A stretch of DNA of 52,274 nucleotides from an uncultured beta proteobacterium (lineage in GTDB: Bacteria > Pseudomonadota > Gammaproteobacteria > Burkholderiales > Burkholderiaceae_C). A program made the position numbers and the translations under genes. Of the stretch, positions 12,668 to 42,159 are shown piece after piece; position 1 is the first letter of the stretch, and each line of letters opens with the position of its first letter. The notes below the pieces were generated by a model. The model worked only from the letters and a program-made list of their open reading frames with translations. It had not been told where the DNA came from and ran no database searches. The DNA lies in contig CAITXW010000257.1 of assembly GCA_903896425.1 (NCBI GenBank), positions 1 through 52,274 on the forward strand, in the 5' to 3' direction.

Positions 12668-12708
12668 TTGACAACTCGCAAGTCGGCGCTGGCGGTGCTC
12701 TTTAGCAT
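12668..12708 (+). promoter_or_regulatory. FNR/FixK-type class II promoter of hsp20-cfa
   Basis: TTGAC-AACT-CGCAA (12668-12681), 21 nt, -10 TAGCAT (12703-12708). Confidence 0.7.
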
Positions 12709-12775
12709 GAACACAGACTGCGCGCAGGGCCATGCAAGCAGTCTCTTGAGATGTTCAACAAAAGGAGTATTCATC

Positions 12776-13219
12776 ATGAGCAAATTGCGTTTGTTTGAGC
12801 CGCGTTTATTTGAACCGGCACTGAGCGATCCGTTCGAATCCATGTTCACGCGCTTCATGGCGCCCATGCGAAAAGCGATGGAAGACGGCGCGCTCGATAT
12901 CAAGCTCGACGTCACCGAAGCCGATGGCATGTACAAGGTTCGTGCCGACATCCCGGGCGTGAAAAAAGACGATATCAATGTGCGCATCGACGGCAATGTC
13001 ATTCAAATCGACGCCGAGGCCAGGAAGGAAAAAGAAACAAAGGGCAATGGCGGCAAAGTTCTTTGCAGCGAGCGCTGGGAAGGCGCGGTATCGCGCACCT
13101 TCTCGGTGGCGCAGGATGTCGATGAGGCAAAAGCATCAGCCCATTACGAGGACGGCGTGCTGATGCTTGACTTGCCGAAGAAAACGACCGCGCCATCAAA
13201 GCGGATCGCCATTCAGTGA
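12776..13219 (+). CDS. Hsp20/alpha-crystallin small heat shock protein
   Basis: ADIPGVKKDDINV, AHYEDGVLMLDLPK; AAAGGAG RBS. Confidence 0.92.
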   Translation: MSKLRLFEPRLFEPALSDPFESMFTRFMAPMRKAMEDGALDIKLDVTEADGMYKVRADIPGVKKDDINVRIDGNVIQIDAEARKEKETKGNGGKVLCSERWEGAVSRTFSVAQDVDEAKASAHYEDGVLMLDLPKKTTAPSKRIAIQ

Positions 13220-14559
13220 TGGGTCCGGAGTACCAAGCCAACCAGGCGCTGCGGAATTCTGCCGCCATGTCGGCGCCGCCGATGGAAACCCTTGCCCCAT
13301 TCGCGCAGGCCGATCGCAGCCTGCTGAATCGGGTTTTGTCCCGATTGCAACCGCAATCCGACATTCCGCTGCGGCTGTCCCTGTGGAACGGCATGCACCA
13401 CGATCTGGGCGCCGCACCGCAGGTTACCGTGCGTTTGTCGGGACCTGGTTCGCTGCGGTACTTCCTGCCCCCGAGTCTGGACAACCTGGCCGATGGTTAC
13501 GTCAACGGCCATTTCGACGTGCAGGGCCGGGTTCATGATGTGGTGGCAGCCGCGTCCAGGCTGGCGCATTCGGGTGTGCCAATGCGTGGGCGCTTCGGGC
13601 GCCTGTTCAATGCCGTGCGCCACGACCGGGCCAGGGACGCGCGCGCGATCGAGCATCATTACGACGTTTCCAACGACTTCTATCGCCTGTGGCTGGACCC
13701 GGCGCTGGTCTACTCCTGCGCCTACTTCCCGACCAGCACTGAAACGCTGGCGGCAGCCCAGAGCGCCAAGCTCGACCACATCCTGACCAAGATCATGCTC
13801 AAGCCGGGTGAACGCCTGCTCGACATCGGATGCGGCTGGGGCGCACTGGTGATACGCGCGGCGCAAAAGTACGGCGCGCATGCGGTCGGTGTCACCCTGT
13901 CAAAAAATCAGTATGAATTGGCGCAGCAGCGTGTGGCGCAGGCGGGTGTGGCCAGCCAGGTTGAAATCCGCCTGCAGGACTACCGCGATATTGACAAGCG
14001 TGACGGACTGTTTGACAAGATCACCTCCATCGGCATGTTCGAGCACGTCGGCCTGAACCATTTGCCGGAGTATTTCGCAAAGATCCATGCGCTGCTGCGA
14101 GACGGCGGCCTGGTGCTCAACCACGGCATCACTTCCACCGATGCCGGCAGCGGAGAAACCCCGCTGGGTGCGGCCAGTTTCATTGAGAAGTACGTTTTTC
14201 CGAGCGGCGAGTTGCCCCATGTCAGCCTGGCGCTCAAGGACATGCAGGGCGCCGGCCTGGAGGTGCTCGATGTCGAATGCCTGCGCCGCCACTACGCCAG
14301 AACGCTGGCCGGCTGGTCGGACAATTACGAGAGCCAAAGCGATTCGATCCGCGCCATCGTCGACGAGACCACGTTTCGGGTCTGGCGCATCTACCTTGCT
14401 GGCTGCGCCCTCGCGTTCAGCCAGAACTGGGTGTCCTTGTACCAGCTGCTGGCCTGCAAGGAAGGCAGCAGCGAACACCTCAATCCGACCCCCTGGTCGC
14501 GGGCCTACATGTACCCGTCAAATCCGGCGCCAGGCAAGCTTGACGCGCCAGCCGGCTGA
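13216..14559 (+). CDS. cfa: Cyclopropane-fatty-acyl-phospholipid synthase family methyltransferase
   Basis: HHYDVSNDFY..WLD..LVYSCAYF, LLDIGCGWG, SIGMFEHVG; start uncertain (GTG overlaps hsp20 stop). Confidence 0.88.
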   Translation: MMGPEYQANQALRNSAAMSAPPMETLAPFAQADRSLLNRVLSRLQPQSDIPLRLSLWNGMHHDLGAAPQVTVRLSGPGSLRYFLPPSLDNLADGYVNGHFDVQGRVHDVVAAASRLAHSGVPMRGRFGRLFNAVRHDRARDARAIEHHYDVSNDFYRLWLDPALVYSCAYFPTSTETLAAAQSAKLDHILTKIMLKPGERLLDIGCGWGALVIRAAQKYGAHAVGVTLSKNQYELAQQRVAQAGVASQVEIRLQDYRDIDKRDGLFDKITSIGMFEHVGLNHLPEYFAKIHALLRDGGLVLNHGITSTDAGSGETPLGAASFIEKYVFPSGELPHVSLALKDMQGAGLEVLDVECLRRHYARTLAGWSDNYESQSDSIRAIVDETTFRVWRIYLAGCALAFSQNWVSLYQLLACKEGSSEHLNPTPWSRAYMYPSNPAPGKLDAPAG

Positions 14560-14620
14560 TACTTGCGCGCGCTTGAGGTTTCGCGCGAAATCGCCGGCGC
14601 TACACGCGTCGATGACGGGT

Positions 14621-14833
14621 TCACGGCCTGGCGTCTTTTTCGTTGTCTTGCTGCGGGCTCGTCAAGCGGTTGATATGGGCCGCAAAGTCCTTGGCCTTGA
14701 CCTTGTACTGTTTGGCAGAAATTTCGGCGGCGCGGATGGCCAGGCTGGCCAGGGCCCGCTTGCCGCTGAGCCGTTGCAGGTCCTTGAGCACCTTGAGCTC
14801 ACCGGAGCCGCCAAGGGATCGCGACCATCGATT
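14621..14833 (-). pseudogene. Probable 3' fragment of an unidentified gene
   Basis: Open frame ..SGELKVLKDLQRLSGKRALASLAIRAAEISAKQYKVKAKDFAAHINRLTSPQQDNEKDARP* with G/C-ending codons but no upstream ATG. Confidence 0.4.
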
Positions 14834-14883
14834 TCATTGCGGGCGGTGGCAACACCGCCCCCGCTTATTGGGTGGCGCAGATG

Positions 14884-14924
14884 TTGCGATATCGCAAGTC
14901 AGCCTGGCATGCGCTTCCTATCAT
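14884..14924 (+). promoter_or_regulatory. FNR/FixK-type class II promoter of the DUF2934-like gene
   Basis: Palindrome TTGCG-ATAT-CGCAA (14884-14897), 21 nt, -10 TATCAT (14919-14924). Confidence 0.72.
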
Positions 14925-40060: not shown

Positions 40061-41395
40061 ATGGCCCACGCCCTGTCCGCGCCGGTGCAATGTTTCCCGC
40101 GCTGCAACGAATCAGAAGAGCTCGGCGCCGATCACCCGGTGCGATCGACCTATGCCCTGGTGCTTGCCGGCGGTCGTGGTGCGCGCCTGAAGCAAATGAC
40201 CGATGGCTGCGCCAAGCCGGCTGTGCCGTTTGCCGGCTCGCTCAAGATCATCGACTTCACACTCAGCAACTGCGTCAATTCCGGCATCCGCCAGATCAGC
40301 GTGCTGACCCAATACAAGGCGCAGAGCCTTAACCGCCACATTGGGCAGGACTGGGCCTTCCTGGGTGCTGACGGAGGTGAATTCATCGACGTCGTTCCGT
40401 CCCAGCAATCCGCTGGGCTGGCGGGCTACAGCGGCACCGCCGACGCGGTGTACCAAAACCTGAGCCGGGTGCGCCGGACAAATCCGAGGCTGGTACTGAT
40501 TCTGGCCGGCGACCACGTTTACAAGATGGATTACCGGCGCATCATCGAGGACCACCTCAAGCGCAACGCTGACCTCACCGTGGCCTGCATCGAGGTGCCG
40601 CTGGCGCAGGCATCGGCGTTTGGTGTGATGGGCATCGACGCGCGCGCCCGCATCCGGGTGTTCGATGAGAAACCGGCTTGTCCCAAAGCCATTGCGGGTC
40701 GGCCTGGAAGGGCTTTGGCCAGCATGGGCATCTACGTTTTCGATGCCGATTTCCTGTACCGGGAGCTGCAGCGCGATGCGATCGACACAGGCTCAAGCCA
40801 CGACTTCGGGCACGACATCATTCCGCGCGTCATTTCAAGCGGGCGCGTGTTTGCGCATGACTTCGCTAGCAGTTGTGTGGGTCGGGGCAATGCAGAACCC
40901 TACTGGCGCGATGTCGGCACGCTGGACGCCTATTGGCAGGCCAATATGGACCTGGCGCGACCCGATCCCGAATTCAATCTGTATGACGACAGCTGGCCCA
41001 TTCGCGGAAAGTTGCAGGACATGCCGCCCAAGGCCGTCGTTTTCAATGACGAAGGCAGTTGTGGCCTGGAGGGCGAATCGCTGGTCTCCAGTGGCTGCGT
41101 GGTCAGCGGTGCCACGGTGCGGCGATCCATGCTTTTTTCAAAGGCGCAGGTCGGCAACGGCAGCGTGATCGAAGACTCGCTGTTGCTGCCCAATGTGGTG
41201 CTCGGGCGCAACTGCACTTTGCGCCGCGTCATCATCGACAGTCATTGCGTGCTGCCCGACGGCATGCAGATCGGTCTCAATCGGGAACACGACCGCAGCC
41301 GGTTCACGGTGAGCGGAAACGGTGTGACCCTGGTCACACCGGCCATGCTGGGGCAGTTTGACAAACATGTGCCAGCAACGCGCGCCTATGCGTGA
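40061..41395 (+). CDS. glgC: Glucose-1-phosphate adenylyltransferase (divergent)
   Basis: [61 protein letters not shown]. Confidence 0.9.
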
Positions 41396-41499
41396 CGGCG
41401 CCAGCGCAGTCCGCATGGGCGCATAGCATCGTTGGTCGCCAACGCCCTGCTCGCCAGAGTGGGTTTTGGAACAGGCCCGCAGGTATAATGAAACACGAT

Positions 41500-41575
41500 G
41501 CGGCTGTAGCTCAGTGGATAGAGTATCGGCCTCCGAAGCCGAGGGCCGTGGGTTCGATCCCCGCCAGCCGCACCA
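41500..41575 (+). tRNA. tRNA-Arg (anticodon CCG)
   Basis: 76 nt; GCGGCTG/CAGCCGC acceptor stem, TCGGC-CT-CCG-AA-GCCGA anticodon arm, GGTTCGA T-loop, encoded CCA; TATAAT at 41484-41489. Confidence 0.97.
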
Positions 41576-41658
41576 GTGCAATTTAGCTTGCCACCCTGCT
41601 TGATCACTCCGGCTGATTTGCCCCAATAATGGGGCACTGACAAAGAAGGAAAGAAACT

Positions 41659-42051
41659 ATGACCATACTGGTAGCCTATGTGCCACGTCCGGAAGGACAG
41701 GCGGCTTTGGACAAGGGTTTGGAAATCGCCAAACGCCGCAAGGAACGTCTCGTAGTGGTCAATGCCAGCCCGGGCGGCAGAAAAGAAGATGTGGCGATGG
41801 CCGATGCACAGGACATCGAGCGTGTCGAAGCCCTGCTGGCGGCCTCGGGTTGCGACGCCGAATTCAAGCAGTTCGTGCGCGGTCAGAGCGCGGTGTCCGA
41901 AATCGAGTCAATGATTGATTCATTGCAGGTCTCGCTGCTGATTCTCGGTCTGCGCAAACGCACGGCGGTTGGCAAACTGATTCTGGGTAGCGTCGCCCAG
42001 GAATTGCTGCTTTCCGTCCCCTGCCCGGTGCTGGCGGTCAAGGCAGCCTGA
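41659..42051 (+). CDS. Universal stress protein
   Basis: MTILVAYVPRPEG, ILGLRKRTAVGKLILGSVAQELLLSVPCPVLAVK. Confidence 0.88.
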   Translation: MTILVAYVPRPEGQAALDKGLEIAKRRKERLVVVNASPGGRKEDVAMADAQDIERVEALLAASGCDAEFKQFVRGQSAVSEIESMIDSLQVSLLILGLRKRTAVGKLILGSVAQELLLSVPCPVLAVKAA

Positions 42052-42118
42052 TTTCCGTCTCAAGGGATCATGCGACTGCCCCAGTTTGGGGTTTGTTCTG
42101 ACGTTCTCGCGCTGTTGG

Positions 42119-42159
42119 TTGACTTGGGTCAAAGAGATCGCACTGAAGGTCGATAGCAT
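42119..42159 (+). promoter_or_regulatory. FNR/FixK-type class II promoter of the CBS gene
   Basis: TTGAC-TTGG-GTCAA (42119-42132), 21 nt, -10 TAGCAT (42154-42159). Confidence 0.75.

What the first reader, a model, noticed from the sequence alone, without database searches (positions are those of the whole stretch)
12668..42159. Block-wide FNR/FixK-type regulon with fixed 21-nt box-to--10 spacing
Seen in sequence: ten 14-bp boxes TTG(AT/AC/AG/CG/TG)-N4-(AT/GT/CT/CG)CAA outside intact genes, at 12668, 14884, 15850, 18634, 23977, 37163, 39472, 39788, 39923 and 42119. Seven have a YAnnnT -10 hexamer exactly 21 nt away, each facing a gene: hsp20-cfa, DUF2934-like, the minus-strand hypothetical, TolC-OmpA copy 2, the Ig-like lipoprotein, glgC and CBS. 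Established: this is Crp/Fnr class II activation geometry (site near -41.5), and USP/CBS/Hsp20 genes are typical of hypoxia loci such as the B. cenocepacia lxa locus and FixK/DosR regulons. Inference: a compact low-oxygen regulon that also recruits adhesion and secretion genes, with a frequent TTGCG/CGCAA half-site variant.
Basis: partly seen in the sequence, partly recalled or inferred. Interest (0 to 1): 0.88.

Follow-up and report, generated by a model that had tools for sequence, protein, structure and literature searches.

The report
FixK-like low-oxygen regulon lacking its sensor
In a lake Rhodoferax, real and conserved binding-site-like boxes sit in front of stress, adhesion-pilus and secretion genes and are likely read by the neighbouring FixK-like regulator of a predicted low-oxygen cascade, whose kinase in this lineage has lost the predicted oxygen-sensing domain that its relatives keep.

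Summary
All ten boxes are real: about 2 expected by chance, seven with a -10 hexamer 21 nt away, and an eighth (23977) with one at 22 nt facing the Flp pilin. The spacing is not special: it is 21 or 22 nt across Rhodoferax, canonical FNR boxes there also peak at 21, and so does a Burkholderia lxa-like locus. Nine boxes lie in a 30.8-kb block beside tRNA-Arg; across 72 relatives their motif follows cysteine-less FixK-like Crp proteins, not the near-universal FNR. The CBS box is a separate, core FNR-type site. Boxes before flp, the Ig-like lipoprotein and TolC recur in relatives with this Crp and are missing in those without it. In relatives the Crp lies behind a FixL-like heme-PAS/HisKA_3 kinase and a NarL-type regulator, with an invariant promoter motif upstream. 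Here the kinase has lost all PAS domains and is degenerating, so oxygen input in this lineage is open. Verdict: new variant of the FixLJ-FixK/lxa type; no expression data. The scan noted an analogous FNR-box island in an alphaproteobacterium (e1-715640), not this system.

The parts
12668..12681 (+). Box before hsp20-cfa; -10 at 12703-12708 (21 nt)
   Evidence: the most similar hsp20 of G056 has a box with 21-nt spacing
14884..14897 (+). Box before the 93-aa DUF2934 gene (15002-15283); -10 at 14919-14924 (21 nt)
   Evidence: G050 orthologue has a box at 21 nt
15850..15863 (-). Box before the minus-strand hypothetical gene (15435-15797); -10 at 15823-15828 (21 nt)
   Evidence: identical box in G050, at 22 nt
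18634..18647 (+). Box before TolC-OmpA copy 2 (18744-20579); -10 at 18669-18674 (21 nt)
   Evidence: box plus -10 at the same distance before TolC in G008, G034, G044
23977..23990 (+). Box before the Flp pilin and tad operon; -10-like hexamer at 24013-24018 (22 nt)
   Evidence: box plus hexamer at 22 nt before flp in G034, G038, G050, G058
37163..37176 (+). Box before the Ig-like lipoprotein (37276-39396); -10 at 37198-37203 (21 nt)
   Evidence: conserved in G038, G058, G050, absent in G048
39472..39485 (.). Box without a -10 at 21-22 nt; first half-site departs from TTG(A/C); role unexplained
39788..39801 (.). Box without a -10 at 21-22 nt, upstream of a short minus-strand gene remnant; role unexplained
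39923..39936 (+). Box before glgC; -10 at 39958-39963 (21 nt)
   Evidence: in G050 a box at 21 nt faces the gene just before glgC
42119..42132 (+). Canonical FNR-type box before the CBS gene, outside the block; -10 at 42154-42159 (21 nt)
   Evidence: present in 29 of 29 orthologue loci with upstream DNA, 15 of them in genomes where neither FixK-like protein was found
10784..10797 (+).
   Evidence: relatives with a FixK-like Crp have a box plus -10 at 21 nt before this gene
21478..22248 (-). Cysteine-less FixK-like Crp/Fnr protein, recognition helix E-S-V-S-R; likely reader of the boxes
22338..22349 (-). Invariant motif CTCCCTACAGAC upstream of the crp gene, with a -10 hexamer 18 nt further on (22314-22319); likely site of the NarL-type regulator
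   Evidence: 21 of 21 crp promoters aligned; the exact 12-mer is unique in this genome
22317..23075 (-). NarL/FixJ-family response regulator
23054..23785 (-). 243-aa HisKA_3 kinase core with all PAS domains deleted and a degenerate ATP-binding region
20928..21470 (-). Universal stress protein behind crp (conserved kinase-regulator-crp-usp module)
24229..37146 (+). Flp/tad pilus operon
16128..18565 (+). Hybrid PAS kinase and single-receiver protein; candidate replacement input, untested
10701..41498 (.). 30.8-kb block holding nine of the ten boxes, between the cytochrome c gene and tRNA-Arg(CCG) (41500-41575), which are adjacent in G016, G050 and G038

Best explanation
Nine of the ten boxes are likely class II activator sites for the cysteine-less FixK-like Crp protein encoded in the middle of the block, whose gene is predicted to be switched on by the neighbouring NarL-type regulator, while the CBS box is likely a core FNR site. 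Shown: the boxes, their 21-22-nt distance to a -10 hexamer, their conservation at orthologous promoters, their co-occurrence with FixK-like proteins, the invariant motif upstream of crp, the FixL-like PAS domain in relatives' kinases and its loss here. Inferred: in relatives, loss of O2 from the heme PAS turns on the kinase, phosphorylated regulator activates crp, and the Crp dimer, centred near -40.5 or -41.5, activates chaperone, membrane-lipid, storage, Tad-pilus, Ig-lipoprotein and TolC genes. In this lineage the regulon is likely still wired to the Crp, but the original oxygen input is gone; expression would depend on cross-phosphorylation of the regulator (for example by the hybrid PAS kinase of the block), on basal crp expression, or on FNR reading the same boxes.
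For: Pattern TTGMNANNTNKCAA-N21/22-TANNNT: 102 sites in the 24 relatives with this Crp (all 24 have at least one), 25 in the 9 with a second cysteine-less type, 29 in the 39 with neither; 18 of 31 genomes with canonical FNR but neither type have none; spacer control N25/26 gives 25 sites in 73 genomes. Orthologous promoters: flp box plus hexamer in 5 of 9 Crp-bearing genomes and 0 of 4 others; TolC box plus -10 at 21 nt in 4 of 7 and 0 of 12; Ig-lipoprotein box in 4 of 5 and 0 of 1; G048 has the whole tad-Ig locus with no box in 18 kb. Crp lacks the N-terminal cysteine cluster in 40 of 40 aligned homologues and keeps E-x-x-S-R. 28 of 28 relatives' kinases examined are 313-640 aa with a PAS domain whose best PDB match is FixL heme PAS (E 2e-9) and which keeps the aligned proximal histidine. 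Other boxed genes in relatives are Hsp20, GroEL, ribonucleotide reductase, BON, zinc alcohol dehydrogenase, CBS, S30AE and encapsulated ferritin-like proteins, overlapping the predicted alphaproteobacterial FixK core regulon (Hsp20, CBS, Zn alcohol dehydrogenase; PMC2908626).
Against: No binding, start-site or expression data. The genus pattern was derived from DNA around this Crp, so the co-occurrence is partly circular, and kin are not independent. G028 (6 sites) and G064 (4 sites) have many sites and no FixK-like protein was found in them (86% and 79% complete). This genome also encodes three FNR proteins with the cysteine cluster, a truncated fourth FNR-like reading frame and a second cysteine-less Crp, and FNR and FixK read nearly the same sites (PMC2908626). 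Several Crp-bearing genomes lack the box at flp, TolC or the Ig gene. In G038 and G058 the kinase and regulator are not beside crp. In B. dolosa tad genes go up, not down, when fixLJ is deleted (PMC5234846). Heme binding by the relatives' PAS is predicted from sequence only.
Confidence: 0.62

Rival explanations
1. All boxes are read mainly by an iron-sulfur FNR of this genome, so the block is an ordinary FNR regulon and the local Crp is at most a helper.
For: FNR orthologue in 63 of 72 relatives and several paralogues here; canonical boxes use the same 21-nt spacing (38 of 90); FNR would restore oxygen control where the heme sensor is lost; the CBS box fits this reading.
Against: The block-type motif is scarce in FNR-positive genomes without a FixK-like protein (27 sites in 31 genomes, 18 with none); the same genes lack boxes in G048 and G016, which have FNR; no peak at 21 nt elsewhere in this genome.
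Confidence: 0.17
2. The boxes are shared by, or belong to, the second cysteine-less Crp of this genome (contig C389), whose relatives sit in similar islands.
For: That type occurs in 9 of 72 relatives that lack the local type and have the same boxes beside it; the block's hsp20 and hybrid kinase resemble those of such an island in G056.
Against: It lies on a 3-kb contig next to transposase-like reading frames and may be a stray or mobile copy; flp, Ig-gene and TolC boxes track the local type.
Confidence: 0.08
3. The cascade answers a cue other than oxygen (redox, CO, NO or general stress), or in this lineage is silent and decaying.
For: Kinase without a sensor, 22 of 92 conserved columns changed against 0-11 in relatives; decayed box before the acyl-CoA ligase, two boxes without a -10 and gene remnants in the block; no respiratory oxidase genes among the boxed targets seen.
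Against: Crp, regulator and USP are under purifying selection (dN/dS 0.18-0.26); eight promoters keep box and spacing; the 243-aa kinase frame is intact in 7 distinct sequences.
Confidence: 0.11
4. The boxes are chance matches in a G+C-rich window.
For: The half-site set was chosen after seeing the window; one control spacer gives 6 matches.
Against: Spacing P 1.4e-6 after correction; an independent published consensus gives 27 and 24 TAnnnT hexamers at 21 and 22 nt against at most 6 at other offsets in 53 relatives' loci; conservation at orthologous promoters.
Confidence: 0.02

Closest known systems
FixLJ-FixK2 cascade of Bradyrhizobium diazoefficiens and related FixLJ-FixK / hFixL-FxkR-FixKf systems
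   Same: Heme-PAS kinase, response regulator, cysteine-less Crp/Fnr protein; box consensus TTG(A/C)-N6-(T/G)CAA with a centre 40.5 nt from the start at nosR (PMC5582078, passages); Hsp20, CBS and Zn alcohol dehydrogenase targets (PMC2908626, passages); a regulator site upstream of the fixK-like gene (PMC4999443, passages).
   Different: Kinase is HisKA_3 class; the motif upstream of crp differs from the FixJ and FxkR sites listed in PMC4999443; the Crp scores far below the NCBIfam FixK cut-off (42 against 300 bits); targets include tad, an Ig lipoprotein and TolC; the sensor is deleted in this lineage.
Burkholderia lxa locus (BCAM0287 CRP, BCAM0288 regulator, BCAM0289 kinase)
   Same: CRP-regulator-kinase trio among USP and alpha-crystallin genes with an Fnr-like motif (PMC3721108, passages). 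An unannotated lxa-like locus of B. stagnalis has kinase, regulator and Crp in the same order, a PAS-HisKA_3 kinase 31% identical to the Rhodoferax one, and 7 of 10 boxes at 21 nt from a -10.
   Different: The Burkholderia Crp has the N-terminal cysteines and groups with FNR in the tree; its boxes are TTGA(C/T)-type; the Rhodoferax regulator-site motif was not found there; identity of that locus with lxa is inferred from gene content.
Burkholderia cepacia complex FixLJ-FixK
   Same: Betaproteobacterial two-component system that induces a Crp/Fnr gene in low oxygen (PMC5234846, passages).
   Different: FixL there is HisKA class and unlinked to fixK; tad genes rise in the fixLJ mutant.
Mycobacterial DosS/DosT-DosR regulon
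   Same: Heme-sensing kinase, NarL-family regulator, USP and heat-shock targets (PMC12071387, passages); HisKA_3 class of DosS is recalled.
   Different: GAF not PAS sensor; the regulator acts directly, with no Crp tier.
Pseudomonas aeruginosa Anr control of CupA fimbriae
   Same: An Fnr-family regulator raises an adhesin under low oxygen (PMC12071387, passages).
   Different: Indirect, through a trimeric regulator; chaperone-usher fimbriae rather than Tad pili with a box at the pilin promoter.

Membership tests
FixK group of Crp/Fnr proteins (definition of PMC2908626) | FNR-like protein lacking one or more of the four Fe-S cysteines | tested here: met
   No N-terminal cysteine cluster in the window protein or 39 homologues; best NCBIfam match is the Fnr subfamily, below cut-off
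FixK group of Crp/Fnr proteins (definition of PMC2908626) | FNR-type recognition helix E-x-x-S-R | tested here: met
   E221, S224, R225 invariant in 40 of 40
FixK group of Crp/Fnr proteins (definition of PMC2908626) | Orthology with alphaproteobacterial FixK | tested here: inconclusive
   42.4 bits against a cut-off of 300 for the Caulobacter FixK model; the tree held no alphaproteobacterial FixK
FixK group of Crp/Fnr proteins (definition of PMC2908626) | Binds TTG(A/C)-N6-(T/G)CAA and activates transcription | not testable with these tools
   Nine of the ten boxes fit the consensus by inspection; binding is inferred from co-occurrence
Canonical FNR | Four cysteine ligands for a [4Fe-4S] cluster | tested here: not met
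   Absent in 21478-22248; present in the C299, C28 and C510 proteins of the same genome
FixLJ-FixK cascade | FixL-type heme PAS in the kinase | tested here: not met
   Absent from the window kinase and not found elsewhere in the 85%-complete assembly; present by sequence in 28 of 28 relatives examined
FixLJ-FixK cascade | HisKA-class kinase core as in FixL | tested here: not met
   HisKA_3; Bcc FixL is HisKA (PMC5234846)
FixLJ-FixK cascade | LuxR-type response regulator with a site upstream of the fixK-like gene | tested here: inconclusive
   Regulator present; invariant motif 18 nt from a -10 in 21 of 21 crp promoters; that the regulator binds it is inferred
FixLJ-FixK cascade | Induction under low oxygen | not testable with these tools
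   Needs RNA data or a reporter
lxa-type locus | Kinase-regulator-CRP trio with USP and Hsp20 genes | tested here: met
   same order as in the B. stagnalis lxa-like locus
lxa-type locus | CRP orthologous to the Burkholderia lxa-type CRP | tested here: not met
   36% identity, cysteines present there, separate starred clades
Class II Crp/Fnr promoter | Site centred at about -40.5 to -42 from the start | tested here: inconclusive
   21 nt gives -40.5 and 22 nt gives -41.5 if the hexamer is at -12 to -7 (arithmetic); no start site mapped

The most novel reading that the evidence does not exclude
Rhodoferax and some other Comamonadaceae carry an undescribed three-tier oxygen cascade (FixL-like heme PAS on a HisKA_3 kinase, NarL-type regulator with its own site, cysteine-less Crp with a TTGCG/TTGAG-type box) that directly switches on Tad pili, an Ig-like surface lipoprotein and a TolC channel together with dormancy genes. 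In this lake lineage the kinase shed its sensor in steps and is kept as a ChpT-like pseudo-kinase that relays phosphate from the hybrid PAS kinase of the same block, re-wiring a whole hypoxia regulon to a new signal.
Probability: 0.12. Interest if true: 0.78.

Novelty: new variant of a known kind. Interest (0 to 1): 0.5.

Why it matters
It gives a concrete, testable regulon (kinase, regulator, regulator site, Crp, Crp box, targets) for an abundant freshwater genus that lives across oxygen gradients, and suggests that attachment structures are switched on directly with the low-oxygen survival programme. It also offers a natural case of a regulon kept intact after its sensor domain was deleted, and points to the kinase-regulator pair inside lxa-type loci as a candidate sensor for a locus whose regulator is still unproven (PMC12973609). 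The 21-nt spacing itself is ordinary.

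Tried and rejected
Genome-wide 21-nt rule in this genome: no peak outside the contig. Fixed half-site polarity: 41 of 51 sites near relatives' crp genes have TTGC distal, the window mostly the reverse, and genus-wide sites show both orientations; treated as orthologue bias. Idea that flp inherited the hsp20 promoter after a tad insertion: rejected, the same box travels with tad in G034, G038, G050, G058. 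Idea that the tad insertion cut the kinase: rejected, a 362-aa relative shares the N-terminus, so the loss is an internal in-frame deletion. Assembly error at the kinase: rejected. NnrR as reader of TTGCG boxes (recalled motif): not pursued, no such protein was identified among the 13 matches. Integration repeats at the block ends: none among the 20 largest repeat families shown; no GC shift. No RNA holder listed. The lxa motif table was not in the two supplementary files held, so lxa boxes were not compared directly. Protein atlas look-up of the 15435-15797 protein did not complete; Pfam and NCBIfam found nothing for it. No complex or structure prediction was run. The position-6/9 contrast between CBS boxes and block boxes was not computed; it is read by eye.

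Full report
Setting. The window is a whole contig of a 3.55-Mb, 85%-complete genome in 525 contigs. Named records encoding the closest relatives of its Crp protein are mostly Rhodoferax, and the runs that hold this DNA are lake or freshwater metagenomes.

Observation. They exceed chance: 10 against a simulated mean of about 2 (maximum 6 in 300 simulations) and 1.85 per 52 kb elsewhere in the genome; the half-site set was chosen from this window, and one control spacer gives 6 matches, so this count alone is only moderate evidence. The spacing is the stronger signal: YAnnnT at 21 nt on 7 of 20 box sides against 1.7% at other offsets (P 1.4e-6 after correction), with no such peak on 247 sides elsewhere in the genome. 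Box 23977 has a hexamer at 22 nt facing the Flp pilin; 39472 and 39788 have none.

The spacing is general. In 53 loci around this Crp in relatives (823 kb; six duplicates and four non-genus loci dropped), the published FixK2 consensus gives 200 boxes with TAnnnT at 21 nt 27 times, at 22 nt 24 times and at most 6 times at any other offset. Genus-wide, 95 of 150 listed sites are at 21 and 55 at 22. Canonical TTGAT-N4-ATCAA boxes peak at 21 too (38 of 90 over offsets 19-25), and so do 7 of 10 boxes in a Burkholderia stagnalis lxa-like locus. A 21-nt gap puts the centre at -40.5 if the hexamer is at -12 to -7; FixK2 at nosR is 40.5 nt from the start (PMC5582078, passages read) and Herbaspirillum fnr1 is at -42 (PMC5934665, passages read). 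So this is ordinary class II geometry.

Two regulons, not one. Homology with the close relative G016 stops at 10700 and resumes at 41499; the cytochrome c gene and tRNA-Arg(CCG) are adjacent in G016, G050 and G038. Nine boxes lie inside this 30.8-kb block. The tenth, before the CBS gene, is outside. A box is present in 29 of 29 CBS orthologue loci that had upstream DNA (30 loci fetched of 41 matches), 26 of them at 21 nt, 15 in genomes where neither FixK-like protein was found. By eye these are TTGAY-N4-RTCAA sites; 3 of 29 have A at position 6 and none has T at position 9, whereas the block-type profile favours A6 and T9. I read it as a core FNR site. G050 holds the block's modules with their boxes on six separate contigs, so compactness is a feature of this genome. 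Both block junctions rest on this assembly.

Which protein reads the block boxes. The local Crp has no N-terminal cysteine cluster and keeps E-x-x-S-R; it forms a well-supported clade apart from the cysteine-bearing FNRs. It was found in 24 of 72 genus genomes and 10 of 400 sampled family genomes. A second cysteine-less type (contig C389 here) was found in 9 of 72, none of which has the first. Canonical FNR was found in 63 of 72. The box-plus-hexamer pattern gives 102 sites in the 24, 25 in the 9 and 29 in the remaining 39, ten of those in two incomplete genomes; the N25/26 control gives 25 in 73. The pattern was learned near this Crp and kin are not independent, so this is support, not proof.

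Adhesion and secretion targets. A box with a hexamer at 22 nt precedes flp in 5 of 9 genomes with this Crp (this one included) and 0 of 4 without; two of the four have a palindrome but no hexamer at 20-23 nt. A box at 21 nt precedes the Ig-like lipoprotein in 4 of 5 with, and not in G048, whose tad-Ig locus has no box in 18 kb. In G038 the tad locus lies over 200 kb from crp and keeps both boxes. TolC-OmpA has box plus -10 at 21 nt in 4 of 7 genomes with this Crp and 0 of 12 without (28 of 30 loci read); in G008, G034 and G044 the boxed copy is the one beside lapD, whereas here it is copy 2. Against a simple reading, tad rises in a B. dolosa fixLJ mutant (PMC5234846, passages read). Low-oxygen control of adhesins has a precedent in Anr and CupA (PMC12071387, passages read).

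The cascade. Relatives share a kinase-regulator-crp-usp module. In 28 of 28 loci examined the kinase is 313-640 aa, and the PAS domain next to the HisKA_3 core matches FixL heme PAS best in the PDB (E 2e-9) and keeps the aligned histidine. FixL is inhibited by O2 bound to this heme (PMC8534201, passages read). Upstream of crp, the motif CTCCCTACAGAC or a one- to two-base variant sits 18 nt from a -10 hexamer in 21 of 21 promoters aligned (21 of 25 genus loci used), in 5 of 10 family genomes outside the genus, and once in this genome. It is the likely site of the NarL-type regulator; it does not match the FixJ or FxkR sites listed in PMC4999443 (passages read). The same gene order occurs in the B. 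stagnalis locus, and lxa has a CRP-regulator-kinase trio (PMC3721108, passages and two supplementary files searched; its motif table was not held).

The lost sensor. The window kinase is 243 aa, with no PAS domain and no close PAS match elsewhere in the assembly. This is real: contigs from two other studies bridge the deletion point with 11 and 17 differences, and 7 distinct 243-aa sequences exist, 79-98% identical to this one. A 362-aa relative shares the N-terminus and keeps only the first PAS, suggesting stepwise internal deletion. The core has changed 22 of 92 conserved columns (relatives 0-11), including the second glycine of the D-x-G-x-G box; three lineage members have also lost the N-box asparagine, yet the phospho-accepting histidine and the frame are kept. 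dN/dS against the closest genome is 0.43, against 0.31-0.37 among relatives and 0.18-0.25 for the neighbouring genes. It may be a dying kinase kept for coupling to the overlapping regulator gene, or a pseudo-kinase relay like ChpT (PMC9981736, passages read); the block does hold a hybrid PAS kinase that would need such a relay, but nothing here tests that.

Novelty. Searches for Rhodoferax with Crp/Fnr/FixK/regulon (20 of 50 listed, none with the word Rhodoferax), for Comamonadaceae with FixL/FixK (15 of 31 listed, none with the word) and for Flp/tad with FixK/Fnr box (14 listed) showed no description of this system; most were seen as listings only, and subscription papers are not in the library. 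The logic is that of FixLJ-FixK and lxa; the parts list (HisKA_3 heme-PAS kinase, own regulator site, cysteine-less Crp, direct boxes at Tad genes) and the sensor loss are the new points. Verdict: new variant of a known kind, interest 0.5.

Noticed in passing
window 1246-5932: LapD-like receptor, LapG-like protease (Peptidase_C93, in 3255-4013 minus) and TolC-OmpA copy 1 form a Lap-type adhesin control module; copy 1 has no box here although the matching copy does in G008, G034 and G044.
   Followed up: partly
window 14666-14810 minus: 3' remnant of a gene that is intact and flavodoxin-like by eye in G050, where it has its own box divergent from DUF2934.
   Followed up: partly
window 39486-39773 minus: Short reading frame between boxes 39472 and 39788 that looks like an ASCH-domain remnant by eye (recalled pattern); Pfam gave no significant match.
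   Followed up: partly
window 10831-12603: The acyl-CoA ligase gene has a box plus -10 at 21 nt in at least nine relatives' loci, making it one of the most constant targets; none in G016 or G048.
   Followed up: yes
L004 / genome contig C389: Second cysteine-less Crp type, mutually exclusive with the local type in 72 relatives but present together with it here, beside transposase-like frames.
   Followed up: partly
L285:1119-2641 (B. stagnalis) and window 6501-8020: lemA and a TPM-domain gene carry FNR-type boxes in the Burkholderia lxa-like locus; homologues lie just left of the block here without a box.
   Followed up: no
L021/L023 (G058, G038): crp and usp are kept with a variant of the regulator-site motif, but the kinase and regulator genes are not adjacent.
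   Followed up: no
genome contigs C28, C510, C13: Extra FNR-like paralogues on long branches, one beside an MSHA-like pilus cluster and one without its N-terminus.
   Followed up: no
window 25071-26456: An AAA-type ATPase sits inside the tad operon between the prepilin peptidase and cpaB here and in G050, G044 and G071, but behind the Ig gene on the other strand in G038 and G058.
   Followed up: no
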